Shown here in pieces: positions 38,467-42,156 of a stretch of DNA of 64,000 nt. The DNA comes from Eledone cirrhosa. Taxonomy: Eukaryota. The stretch lies in assembly GCA_964016885.1 (NCBI GenBank), contig OZ024741.1:201190001-201254000 (forward strand). The letters run 5' to 3'. Every line of letters begins with the position of its first letter. Within the stretch, counting starts at the first letter, position 1. A program made the position numbers and the translations under genes. The notes beneath the pieces were generated by a model. The model searched no databases. It was not told the origin of the DNA and worked only from the letters and a program-made list of their open reading frames with translations.

Positions 38467-40190
38467 GTGAATATAGACATAGAATATTCGAAAATATTCT
38501 GTATGTTTATAATAAACATTTTGAAGACCTAATCGCTATAGAATAGAATACGTCACGTATTACAATTAGATTCTCGATAAAAGCAAGGGAAGTAATCTAC
38601 GCGTTTCATTCTTGTTAGAATTCATCAGGACTACATATCCAGTGCTTTTATCGAGAATGACACAGCTAGAGACTTATAGGATACTTAGCTGTGTACAGGA
38701 ACTGGTTTGAAAGAGCGGTTGCCGGTCCGGCAGAAATTAGAAATTGGAATAAATGCTCTGAAATAGCGATATATAAGTGAATATAGACATAGAATATTCG
38801 AAAATATTCTGTATGTTTATAATAAACATTTTGAAGACCTAATCGCTATAGAATAGAATACGTCACGTATTACAATTAGATTCTCGATAAAAGCAAGGGA
38901 AGTAATCTACGCGTTTCATTCTTGTTAGAATTCATCAGGACTACATATCCAGTGCTTTTATCGAGAATGACACAGCTAGAGACTTATAGGATACTTAGCT
39001 GTGTACAGGAACTGGTTTGAAAGAGCGGTTGCCGGTCCGGCAGAAATTAGAAATTGGAATAAATGCTCTGAAATAGCGATATATAAGTGAATATAGACAT
39101 AGAATATTCGAAAATATTCTGTATGTTTATAATAAACATTTTGAAGACCTAATCGCTATAGAATAGAATACGTCACGTATTACAATTAGATTCTCGATAA
39201 AAGCAAGGGAAGTAATCTACGCGTTTCATTCTTGTTAGAATTCATCAGGACTACATATCCAGTGCTTTTATCGAGAATGACACAGCTAGAGACTTATAGG
39301 ATACTTAGCTGTGTACAGGAACTGGTTTGAAAGAGCGGTTGCCGGTCCGGCAGAAATTAGAAATTGGAATAAATGCTCTGAAATAGCGATATATAAGTGA
39401 ATATAGACATAGAATATTCGAAAATATTCTGTATGTTTATAATAAACATTTTGAAGACCTAATCGCTATAGAATAGAATACGTCACGTATTACAATTAGA
39501 TTCTCGATAAAAGCAAGGGAAGTAATCTACGCGTTTCATTCTTGTTAGAATTCATCAGGACTACATATCCAGTGCTTTTATCGAGAATGACACAGCTAGA
39601 GACTTATAGGATACTTAGCTGTGTACAGGAACTGGTTTGAAAGAGCGGTTGCCGGTCCGGCAGAAATTAGAAATTGGAATAAATGCTCTGAAATAGCGAT
39701 ATATAAGTGAATATAGACATAGAATATTCGAAAATATTCTGTATGTTTATAATAAACATTTTGAAGACCTAATCGCTATAGAATAGAATACGTCACGTAT
39801 TACAATTAGATTCTCGATAAAAGCAAGGGAAGTAATCTACGCGTTTCATTCTTGTTAGAATTCATCAGGACTACATATCCAGTGCTTTTATCGAGAATGA
39901 CACAGCTAGAGACTTATAGGATACTTAGCTGTGTACAGGAACTGGTTTGAAAGAGCGGTTGCCGGTCCGGCAGAAATTAGAAATTGGAATAAATGCTCTG
40001 AAATAGCGATATATAAGTGAATATAGACATAGAATATTCGAAAATATTCTGTATGTTTATAATAAACATTTTGAAGACCTAATCGCTATAGAATAGAATA
40101 CGTCACGTATTACAATTAGATTCTCGATAAAAGCAAGGGAAGTAATCTACGCGTTTCATTCTTGTTAGAATTCATCAGGACTACATATCC
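38467..40190 (-). mobile_element. Hammerhead-ribozyme tandem array (retrozyme-like), left arm, ~5.6 x 310-bp units
   Basis: GTGAATATAGAC recurs at 38467, 38777, 39087, 39397, 39707 and 40017 (period 310). Each unit has a minus-strand hammerhead at 38592-38634 + n*310 (6 copies). The left end abuts (TA)n. Confidence 0.9.
38592..38634 (-). ncRNA. Minimal type I hammerhead ribozyme (representative; further - copies start at 38902, 39212, 39522, 39832, 40142)
   Basis: Exact reverse complement of the 40405-40447 motif. Confidence 0.93.
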
Positions 40191-42156
40191 TAGCGATTAG
40201 GTCTTCAAAATGTTTATTATAAACATACAGAATATTTTCGAATATTCTATGTCTATATTCACTTATATATCGCTATTTCAGAGCATTTATTCCAATTTCT
40301 AATTTCTGCCGGACCGGCAACCGCTCTTTCAAACCAGTTCCTGTACACAGCTAAGTATCCTATAAGTCTCTAGCTGTGTCATTCTCGATAAAAGCACTGG
40401 ATATGTAGTCCTGATGAATTCTAACAAGAATGAAACGCGTAGATTACTTCCCTTGCTTTTATCGAGAATCTAATTGTAATACGTGACGTATTCTATTCTA
40501 TAGCGATTAGGTCTTCAAAATGTTTATTATAAACATACAGAATATTTTCGAATATTCTATGTCTATATTCACTTATATATCGCTATTTCAGAGCATTTAT
40601 TCCAATTTCTAATTTCTGCCGGACCGGCAACCGCTCTTTCAAACCAGTTCCTGTACACAGCTAAGTATCCTATAAGTCTCTAGCTGTGTCATTCTCGATA
40701 AAAGCACTGGATATGTAGTCCTGATGAATTCTAACAAGAATGAAACGCGTAGATTACTTCCCTTGCTTTTATCGAGAATCTAATTGTAATACGTGACGTA
40801 TTCTATTCTATAGCGATTAGGTCTTCAAAATGTTTATTATAAACATACAGAATATTTTCGAATATTCTATGTCTATATTCACTTATATATCGCTATTTCA
40901 GAGCATTTATTCCAATTTCTAATTTCTGCCGGACCGGCAACCGCTCTTTCAAACCAGTTCCTGTACACAGCTAAGTATCCTATAAGTCTCTAGCTGTGTC
41001 ATTCTCGATAAAAGCACTGGATATGTAGTCCTGATGAATTCTAACAAGAATGAAACGCGTAGATTACTTCCCTTGCTTTTATCGAGAATCTAATTGTAAT
41101 ACGTGACGTATTCTATTCTATAGCGATTAGGTCTTCAAAATGTTTATTATAAACATACAGAATATTTTCGAATATTCTATGTCTATATTCACTTATATAT
41201 CGCTATTTCAGAGCATTTATTCCAATTTCTAATTTCTGCCGGACCGGCAACCGCTCTTTCAAACCAGTTCCTGTACACAGCTAAGTATCCTATAAGTCTC
41301 TAGCTGTGTCATTCTCGATAAAAGCACTGGATATGTAGTCCTGATGAATTCTAACAAGAATGAAACGCGTAGATTACTTCCCTTGCTTTTATCGAGAATC
41401 TAATTGTAATACGTGACGTATTCTATTCTATAGCGATTAGGTCTTCAAAATGTTTATTATAAACATACAGAATATTTTCGAATATTCTATGTCTATATTC
41501 ACTTATATATCGCTATTTCAGAGCATTTATTCCAATTTCTAATTTCTGCCGGACCGGCAACCGCTCTTTCAAACCAGTTCCTGTACACAGCTAAGTATCC
41601 TATAAGTCTCTAGCTGTGTCATTCTCGATAAAAGCACTGGATATGTAGTCCTGATGAATTCTAACAAGAATGAAACGCGTAGATTACTTCCCTTGCTTTT
41701 ATCGAGAATCTAATTGTAATACGTGACGTATTCTATTCTATAGCGATTAGGTCTTCAAAATGTTTATTATAAACATACAGAATATTTTCGAATATTCTAT
41801 GTCTATATTCACTTATATATCGCTATTTCAGAGCATTTATTCCAATTTCTAATTTCTGCCGGACCGGCAACCGCTCTTTCAAACCAGTTCCTGTACACAG
41901 CTAAGTATCCTATAAGTCTCTAGCTGTGTCATTCTCGATAAAAGCACTGGATATGTAGTCCTGATGAATTCTAACAAGAATGAAACGCGTAGATTACTTC
42001 CCTTGCTTTTATCGAGAATCTAATTGTAATACGTGACGTATTCTATTCTATAGCGATTAGGTCTTCAAAATGTTTATTATAAACATACAGAATATTTTCG
42101 AATATTCTATGTCTATATTCACTTATATATCGCTATTTCAGAGCATTTATTCCAAT
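40191..42156 (+). mobile_element. Hammerhead-ribozyme tandem array (retrozyme-like), right arm, ~6.3 x 310-bp units, inverted relative to the left arm
   Basis: TAGCGATTAGG recurs at 40191, 40501, 40811, 41121, 41431, 41741 and 42051. The unit is the reverse complement of the left-arm unit. The right end abuts (TA)n. Confidence 0.9.
40405..40447 (+). ncRNA. Minimal type I hammerhead ribozyme (representative; further + copies start at 40715, 41025, 41335, 41645, 41955)
   Basis: P1 GTAGTC / CTGATGA core / P2 ATTCT-AACA-AGAAT / GAAA / palindromic P3 (A)CGCG(T) / GTA cleavage triplet (cut after 40441) / P1' GATTAC. All catalytic-core nucleotides are canonical. Confidence 0.93.

What the first reader, a model, noticed from the sequence alone, without database searches (positions are those of the whole stretch)
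40140..40250. Orientation switch makes the array a giant divergent palindrome
Seen: at 40190/40191 (CTACATATCC|TAGCGATTAG) the array flips with no spacer and no evident microhomology. The ribozyme-sense strands point outward, each arm has 6 hammerheads, and the two 3' ends join (TA)n at different unit positions. Inference: both target-DNA ends primed reverse transcription on circular templates and the cDNAs were joined, as proposed for inverted pLTRs. Read-through would give ~1.7 kb of dsRNA, a possible siRNA or ADAR substrate. Caveat: fold-back chimeric reads or consensus polishing can create or homogenise such structures.
Basis: partly seen in the sequence, partly recalled or inferred. Interest (0 to 1): 0.7.

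Follow-up and report, generated by a model that had tools for sequence, protein, structure and literature searches.

The report
Two-armed ribozyme array, Penelope footprint
This is a 3.7-kb back-to-back array of a 310-base hammerhead-ribozyme repeat inside one split TA microsatellite, and its layout and offset ends suggest that a Penelope-type transposon enzyme likely copied the RNA, probably a circle, from both cut DNA strands.

Summary
The flip at 40190/40191 is in the sequence. Arms of 1,724 and 1,966 nt match one 310-nt unit without a mismatch and join 5'-to-5' with no microhomology. Each arm has six type I hammerhead cores. It is not a perfect palindrome: a hairpin keeps a 102- or 208-nt loop.

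A fold-back read is unlikely. The flanks do not mirror. Both TA tracts carry the same rare TTTT interruption on the same strand, so one microsatellite was split.

The outer ends lie 34 nt apart on the unit, the size of the Penelope 'tail'. A purified Penelope-like protein starts at two sites bracketing that tail and extends both target strands (Frangieh 2024). Two other Penelope-type insertions in this window share the head-to-head layout.

Best reading: a retrozyme written in by two-strand Penelope-type priming, probably on an RNA circle; a linear multimer template is not excluded. No independent read spans the junction. The dsRNA idea is untested. The layout is known for Penelope elements; my searches found it undescribed for retrozyme arrays. 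Earlier, unchecked scan notes call this one of over 1,000 such loci.

The parts
38377..38466 (.). Left part of the target (TA)n microsatellite, with TTTT interruptions
38467..40190 (-). Left arm: 5.56 identical 310-nt units, ribozyme sense on the minus strand; outer end at monomer nt 131, inner end at nt 268
40190..40191 (.). Blunt head-to-head (5'-to-5') junction; 0 nt microhomology, no inserted bases
40191..42156 (+). Right arm: 6.34 identical units, ribozyme sense on the plus strand; inner end at monomer nt 60, outer end at nt 165
40381..40469 (+). One of the type I hammerheads: CUGAUGA core at 40411, 5-bp helix II, GAAA, 2-bp helix III with a 2-nt loop in a palindromic hexamer, predicted cut after 40441, extended helix I and 16-bp outer stem. 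Cores recur at +40411, 40721, 41031, 41341, 41651, 41961 and -40178, 39868, 39558, 39248, 38938, 38628
   Evidence: (z -6.96); core numbering from established hammerhead consensus
42123..42156 (+). 34-nt extension at the right outer end only: candidate Penelope-type tail between two RT start sites (last 2 nt shared with the TA tract)
   Evidence: tail concept
42157..42393 (.). Right part of the same (TA)n microsatellite, TTTT interruptions on the same strand as on the left

Best explanation
The array is a single insertion of a non-coding hammerhead repeat (a non-LTR retrozyme) into one TA microsatellite, likely written by a borrowed Penelope-type enzyme that would extend both cut DNA strands on the repeat's RNA, probably a 310-nt circle copied round several times. 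Shown by sequence: one split microsatellite, two identical multimer arms joined 5'-to-5', outer ends 34 nt apart on the unit, intact hammerheads. Inferred steps: (1) the array RNA self-cleaves, probably as hammerhead dimers, and the monomer is ligated to a circle; (2) a GIY-YIG/RT protein of a Penelope-like element cuts both strands in (TA)n; (3) one 3' end starts at monomer nt 131 and the other at about nt 165, the two sites that bracket the tail; (4) each RT runs on by strand displacement, 5.6 and 6.3 laps, and stops at an arbitrary place; (5) host end-joining links the two cDNA ends bluntly. The palindrome is then a by-product of insertion, not a selected dsRNA device.
For: TATTTTATA occurs only in the two tracts beside the array (2 left, one of them at the tract border; 5 right), in 0 of the other 32 A/T-only tracts listed. 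Its mirror form occurs in 0 of 34. The 2-kb flanks do not mirror. Outer ends are at nt 131 and 165; Penelope tails are 30-40 bp, often at one end only (Craig 2021; a 31-bp tail in Arkhipova 2013). Purified PAc cleaves and extends both strands, starts internally without homology to the cut DNA, and the tail is the stretch between its two start sites (Frangieh 2024). Here the base next to the left end does not match the unit (A outside, T in 12 of 12 internal copies), so that start did not need a paired 3' base. Head-to-head is the commonest inverted arrangement of Penelope elements. In this window, 50529-51175 is a two-armed insertion in (TA)n with a 45-nt extension on one arm, 85% like the 3' region of a GIY-YIG-like fragment. 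19450-22673 is a GIY-YIG element (PF01541) framed by 384-nt inverted repeats. Both arms share two differences from the form in 7 of 7 laid contig runs (12 of 12 and 11 of 11 copies), so both arms come from the same variant. The unit assembles as a closed 310-nt cycle in 5 of these 7 runs.
Against: One locus cannot show that the two ends are fixed; an offset of 30-40 nt in either direction arises by chance about 7% of the time (22 of 310). If the left end is set 8 nt further out, across one mismatch, the offset drops to 24-26 nt. No sequence link was found between the unit and the two Penelope-type 3' regions in the window, so the driver is not identified. [quoted passage not shown] A closed cycle in contigs also arises from a homogeneous tandem family, so it does not show a circular RNA. 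A target-site duplication cannot be read in (TA)n. Perfect identity could partly reflect consensus polishing.
Confidence: 0.56

Rival explanations
1. Same two-strand Penelope-type priming, but the template was an uncleaved linear multimeric transcript (one or two molecules) from a homogeneous parent array, not a circle.
For: PAc uses unprocessed RNA in vitro and does not need ribozyme cleavage. Only 1 of 9 Xenopus retrozyme dimers cleaved in vitro. Short-helix-III hammerheads cleave poorly as monomers. Dual priming on two RNAs has been proposed for L1.
Against: Each arm crosses six predicted cut sites, so at least 6.3 units must stay uncut, in a tandem setting that favours the active dimer. 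Invertebrate retrozymes cleave efficiently and accumulate as circles. All 11.9 units carry the same two private differences, which needs a homogenising step somewhere.
Confidence: 0.2
2. One priming event, after which the cDNA folded back or switched onto itself (self-priming, as proposed for inverted pLTRs), so that the left arm is a copy of the right-arm cDNA.
For: Geometry allows it: left arm + 208-nt loop + 34 nt equals the right arm. Arkhipova 2013 read junction palindromes as self-priming.
Against: There is no junction palindrome (smallest loop 102 nt) and no pairing at the switch point. A copied strand joining (TA)n through the unit's 7-nt TA stretch at nt 133-139 should keep nt 132, which is missing. 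The reverse direction fails because the right arm is longer than the left.
Confidence: 0.12
3. Sequencing or assembly artefact: fold-back chimeric reads or a misjoin of two arrays.
For: Perfect unit identity over 3,690 nt. Complex Penelope structures are known to trouble assemblies.
Against: Flanks are unique and not mirrored. TTTT interruptions keep their strand across the array, where a fold-back would turn them to AAAA. Arms are unequal and out of register. Diverged (97%) head-to-head insertions in the same window show that such structures are genomic.
Confidence: 0.07
4. A single-orientation array was partly inverted later at DNA level, or two separate insertions landed back to back.
For: Tandem arrays recombine, and (TA)n is a repeated target in this window.
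Against: A clean inversion would put one outer end next to the other arm's inner end on the unit (nt 59 or 267); the ends are at 131 and 165. No TA lies between the arms, and both carry the same variant.
Confidence: 0.05

Closest known systems
Metazoan non-LTR retrozymes (Cervera and de la Pena 2020, PMC7229834; Li et al. 2026, 10.64898/2026.07.22.740005)
   Same: Non-coding tandem unit of 150-450 nt, low GC, a type I hammerhead in every unit; target-primed copying of the circle into tandem cDNA and Penelope-type drivers were proposed.
   Different: In the parts I read they are described as head-to-tail tandems. No inverted two-armed arrays, tail-spaced ends or (TA)n targets are described ('inverted' and 'microsatellite' have 0 hits in PMC7229834; its supplement could not be read).
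Penelope-like elements with inverted 5' copy and tail (Craig 2021, PMC8557442; Arkhipova 2013, PMC3846280; Frangieh 2024, PMC11167929)
   Same: Head-to-head inverted 5'-truncated copy, 30-40 nt extension at one end, microsatellite or AT-rich targets, hammerhead in the terminal repeat, extension of both target strands.
   Different: No RT/GIY-YIG ORF; both arms are multimers of one short unit; no palindrome at the junction; no sequence match to a Penelope terminal repeat was found in the window.
LINE-1 twin priming and dual priming (Meyer 2010, PMC2837659)
   Same: Both target ends prime cDNA, giving inverted pieces joined internally, at times without microhomology.
   Different: Twin priming gives non-overlapping pieces of one linear RNA with a poly(A) end. 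Here both arms repeat the same unit, start 34 nt apart and have no poly(A).

Membership tests
Non-LTR retrozyme | Tandem units of about 150-450 nt, GC under 50%, non-coding | tested here: met
   310-nt unit, GC about 33-34%; no ORF of 100 aa lies within the array
Non-LTR retrozyme | Type I hammerhead in at least two consecutive units | tested here: met
   12 cores, fold z -6.96, short palindromic helix III; Rfam gave no match at gathering score, so this rests on motif and fold
Non-LTR retrozyme | RNA self-cleaves | not testable with these tools
   needs in vitro transcription
Non-LTR retrozyme | Expressed as linear and circular monomer RNA | tested here: inconclusive
   closed 310-nt contig cycle in 5 of 7 contig runs of unrecorded or guessed-DNA type; a tandem family gives the same
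Non-LTR retrozyme | Dispersed multi-locus family | not testable with these tools
   no genome held; no second locus in the window; earlier unchecked notes report over 1,000 loci
Penelope-type insertion (mechanism) | Inverted 5'-truncated copy, head-to-head | tested here: met
Penelope-type insertion (mechanism) | 30-40 nt tail at one end only | tested here: met
   34 nt (32-34 allowing for shared AT); single locus, about 7% by chance
Penelope-type insertion (mechanism) | Microsatellite / AT-rich target | tested here: met
   one split (TA)n tract
Penelope-type insertion (mechanism) | Target-site duplication | tested here: inconclusive
   hidden in (TA)n; at most about 26-28 nt, since no TTTT mark is duplicated
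Autonomous Penelope-like element | ORF with RT and GIY-YIG endonuclease | tested here: not met
   no such ORF in the array; not filed as a member
Penelope pLTR derivative | Sequence homology to the pLTR of an autonomous element | tested here: inconclusive
   no match to the 2 Penelope-type 3' regions in the window; rest of genome unavailable
LINE-1-type twin priming | Poly(A) end and non-overlapping inverted pieces | tested here: not met
   no poly(A); arms repeat the same unit

The most novel reading that the evidence does not exclude
A Penelope-type protein dimer holds one 310-nt ribozyme circle and both cut target ends. Its two RTs start at the two tail-bracketing sites and chase each other round the same circle, each displacing the other's cDNA: double rolling-circle reverse transcription. 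The array is the genomic record of that step and explains retrozyme tandems, the inverted pLTR and the tail by one mechanism.
Probability: 0.3. Interest if true: 0.72.

Novelty: new variant of a known kind. Interest (0 to 1): 0.48.

Why it matters
How animal retrozymes get back into genomes has been proposed but not shown, and how Penelope elements form inverted copies and tails is stated as open (Craig 2021). A non-coding multimer that carries the Penelope inverted layout and tail ties the two problems together. It names two start sites (nt 131 and about 165) that can be tested with the existing in vitro assay on a circular versus a linear template. If such loci are as common as earlier notes say, they are also a large latent source of long perfect dsRNA wherever they are read through. 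As a single locus it is one example of a family, and each ingredient is known separately.

Tried and rejected
Whole-genome survey: no genome is held for this window, so other loci, fixed ends and the driver could not be tested.

Independent junction support: one run search (24 runs listed, 20 holding part of the stretch, best share 0.56; no RNA holder listed). I laid 8 of the 24 runs. None of the 7 contig runs bridges 40190/40191. Each holds one contig with ordinary head-to-tail joints and at least two differences from this locus. Contigs drop rare forms and these runs may not be from the source animal, so this is no evidence either way. The one raw-read run (Hi-C, about 1 in 100 read) laid 0 reads: no test.

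Rfam: no match at gathering score.

Junction hairpin: a 4-bp inverted repeat spans the join and suggested snap-back end-joining. Equal or longer repeats occur in 22-68% of 4,000 random blunt joins, depending on settings, so I rejected it as evidence.

ADAR scars: the two differences from the laid contigs are not A-to-G in the ribozyme sense; no evidence.

Host gene context: Pfam scan of 78 of 206 non-repetitive reading frames found no family above cut-off. This neither places the array in an intron nor excludes it.

Unit against the rest of the window and against two Penelope-type 3' regions: only TA-rich chance hits.

RT assignment of 20892-21623: no Pfam or PDB hit; it rests on a recalled YxDD-type motif.

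Promoter in the unit: inspected by eye only, nothing convincing, not tested.

Earlier findings by sequence and by words: none.

Full report
Observation. The array runs from 38467 to 42156 between two (TA)n tracts. Taking the first 310 nt as the unit, the left arm (1,724 nt) and the reverse complement of the right arm (1,966 nt) both match it with 0 mismatches, and neither arm continues by a single base across 40190/40191. Zero microhomology is the commonest outcome for this unit, 53% of all possible joins, so it says little. The arms are out of register: the perfect duplexes are 1,622 bp with a 102-nt loop or 1,724 bp with a 208-nt loop. 'Giant inverted repeat' is right; 'palindrome' is loose.

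The unit. Each unit holds a CUGAUGA core, a 5-bp helix II, GAAA, a 2-bp helix III in a palindromic hexamer, a predicted GUA cut site, an extended helix I and a 16-bp outer stem (fold z -6.96). Rfam gave no match at gathering score. The short palindromic helix III is the form described for metazoan type I hammerheads, which work as dimers in tandem repeats (PMC4209133, passages). The palindrome can pair with itself at -9.5 kcal/mol. There are 6 cores per arm, with sense strands pointing outward; the innermost left one is clipped in its outer stem. Size, GC, lack of an ORF and a hammerhead in every unit fit non-LTR retrozymes (PMC7229834, passages and part 4 of 6; 10.64898/2026.07.22.740005, parts 1-3 of 5). 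Cleavage and expression were not shown.

Is it real? A fold-back read predicts mirrored flanks. The 2-kb flanks share only a 42-nt same-strand hit (E 0.003) and shorter ones. The motif TATTTTATA occurs in the left tract (2, one at the border) and the right tract (5), on the same strand, and in 0 of the other 32 A/T-only tracts listed; its mirror image occurs in 0 of 34. So one distinctive microsatellite was split by the insertion. A clean later inversion would place an outer end at monomer nt 59 or 267; the ends are at 131 and 165. Independent reads across the junction were not found, and the runs available could not test it. The unit count in particular stays unconfirmed.

The key feature is the end offset. 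Numbered from the ribozyme cut, the left arm joins the target at nt 131 and the right at nt 165, the last two bases shared with the tract. The right end thus has 34 extra nt (42123-42156). Penelope-like insertions often have an inverted 5'-truncated copy and a 30-40 bp tail at only one end (PMC8557442, passages and section 15), and head-to-head is their commonest inverted form (PMC3846280, passages). Frangieh et al. (PMC11167929, main text read) report four relevant results for a purified Penelope-like protein: it cuts and extends both target strands, prefers AT-rich DNA, starts inside the RNA at a site not homologous to the cut DNA, and its tail is the stretch between two start sites. At the left end the unit offers a 7-nt TA stretch just beyond the start, but the intervening base differs: A at the border, T in 12 of 12 internal copies. 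That fits a start fixed by the RNA-protein complex or a mismatched primer end. For a single locus, an offset of 30-40 nt has about a 7% chance.

In-window comparators. 50529-51175 is a head-to-head insertion in (TA)n with 139-nt arms at 97% identity and a 45-nt extension on one arm. It is 85% like the 3' region of the fragment at 58455-59579, whose reading frame weakly resembles the GIY-YIG frame at 21536-22147 (E 2e-4 pairwise; no Pfam hit of its own). The element at about 19450-22793 has a GIY-YIG domain (PF01541) and 384-nt inverted repeats at 97%. Calling these Neptune-like rests on a recalled CxxC motif, not on a call. The layout is thus a habit of Penelope-type insertions in this genome. 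It is not peculiar to the array. Neither element shares sequence with the 310-nt unit, so the driver is unnamed.

Template. All 11.9 units are identical, and both arms carry the same two differences from the form seen in 7 of 7 laid contig runs; 4 of these 7 show one or two further differences that were not listed by place. Both arms therefore come from one variant. Rolling-circle copying explains this and the six cut sites crossed per arm. It is the route proposed in PMC7229834. Five of the 7 runs assemble the unit as a 340-nt contig, which is 310 plus the overlap of a closed cycle. A homogeneous tandem family gives the same, and the run types are unrecorded or guessed. Against the circle, PAc uses uncleaved RNA in vitro, and 8 of 9 Xenopus dimers did not cleave. 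I put circle against linear multimer at about 3 to 1. Fold-back self-priming fits the lengths in one direction but has no pairing or palindrome at the switch. L1 twin priming gives the same geometry, with non-overlapping pieces (PMC2837659, passages).

dsRNA. Read-through on either strand could form 1.6-1.7 kb of perfect duplex. Nothing here shows read-through: no RNA data were obtained, and no host exon was recognised among 78 of 206 frames scanned. It remains a possible side effect.

Novelty. Eight literature searches and term look-ups in PMC7229834, PMC7761336, PMC8490949 and PMC13282606 (passages only) found no description of two-armed inverted retrozyme arrays or of tail-spaced ends on them. 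The library lacks most subscription papers, including the early Penelope work. The PMC7229834 supplement, with its mobilisation model, could not be read, and bioRxiv supplements are closed. Earlier scan notes on this genome describe the same 310-nt family, with over 1,000 two-armed loci, and sister families with two fixed start points. I could not check them; they are not independent support, and they make this locus one example of many. That the animal is a cephalopod comes from those notes and my recall of its repeats, not from a call.

Verdict. The feature is very likely real: a new variant of a known kind, a retrozyme array carrying the Penelope insertion footprint. Interest 0.48. The boldest open reading, two RTs on one circle, has probability about 0.3 and would merit about 0.72.

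Noticed in passing
runs X1, X5, X8, X12, X13, X15, X18 laid on window 40089-40398: A near-identical 310-nt unit assembles as one unbranched contig (closed cycle in 5 of 7) in runs with 7 different organism labels from 7 studies, always with the same two differences from this locus. It may reflect related animals, carry-over of an abundant circle or a high-copy repeat, or movement between hosts; unexplained.
   Followed up: partly
window 50529-51175: Short two-armed head-to-head Penelope-type insertion in (TA)n, arms 97% alike, one arm with a 45-nt extension; same family at 56197-56935 (minus) and 58455-59579 (plus, with a GIY-YIG-like frame), each with a minimal hammerhead-like motif (50768, 56476, 59340).
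   Followed up: partly
window 19450-22793: Frameshifted Penelope-like element (GIY-YIG hit; RT by recalled motif only) between TA tracts, framed by 384-nt inverted repeats at 97%; the right side runs about 120 nt beyond the repeat; no canonical hammerhead core found in its 3' part by simple pattern.
   Followed up: partly
window 3473-3945, 6086-6563, 18099-18555: Young repeat family (93-95% alike) around a 2-kb TA-rich tract; the copy at 6086 opens with a 50-nt near-perfect palindrome, like the self-priming junctions described for Penelope elements.
   Followed up: no
window 46874-47020, 57488-57664, 61734-61873: Three isolated, decayed palindromes of 140-180 nt (79-86% arm identity); possible MITEs or short two-armed insertions.
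   Followed up: no
window 26405-26798, 31731-31815, 42547-42696, 49550-49757, 61953-62162: Dispersed SINE-like family; one copy lies about 150 nt right of the array and one pair is in tandem.
   Followed up: no
window 38278-38330 (+): Hammerhead-like CUGAAGA...GAAA pattern with a hairpin, about 100 nt left of the array's TA tract; not folded or tested.
   Followed up: no
window 23071-24336 and 36953-37330: Fragments that look like the endonuclease end of non-LTR retrotransposons (recalled motifs; no Pfam hit).
   Followed up: no
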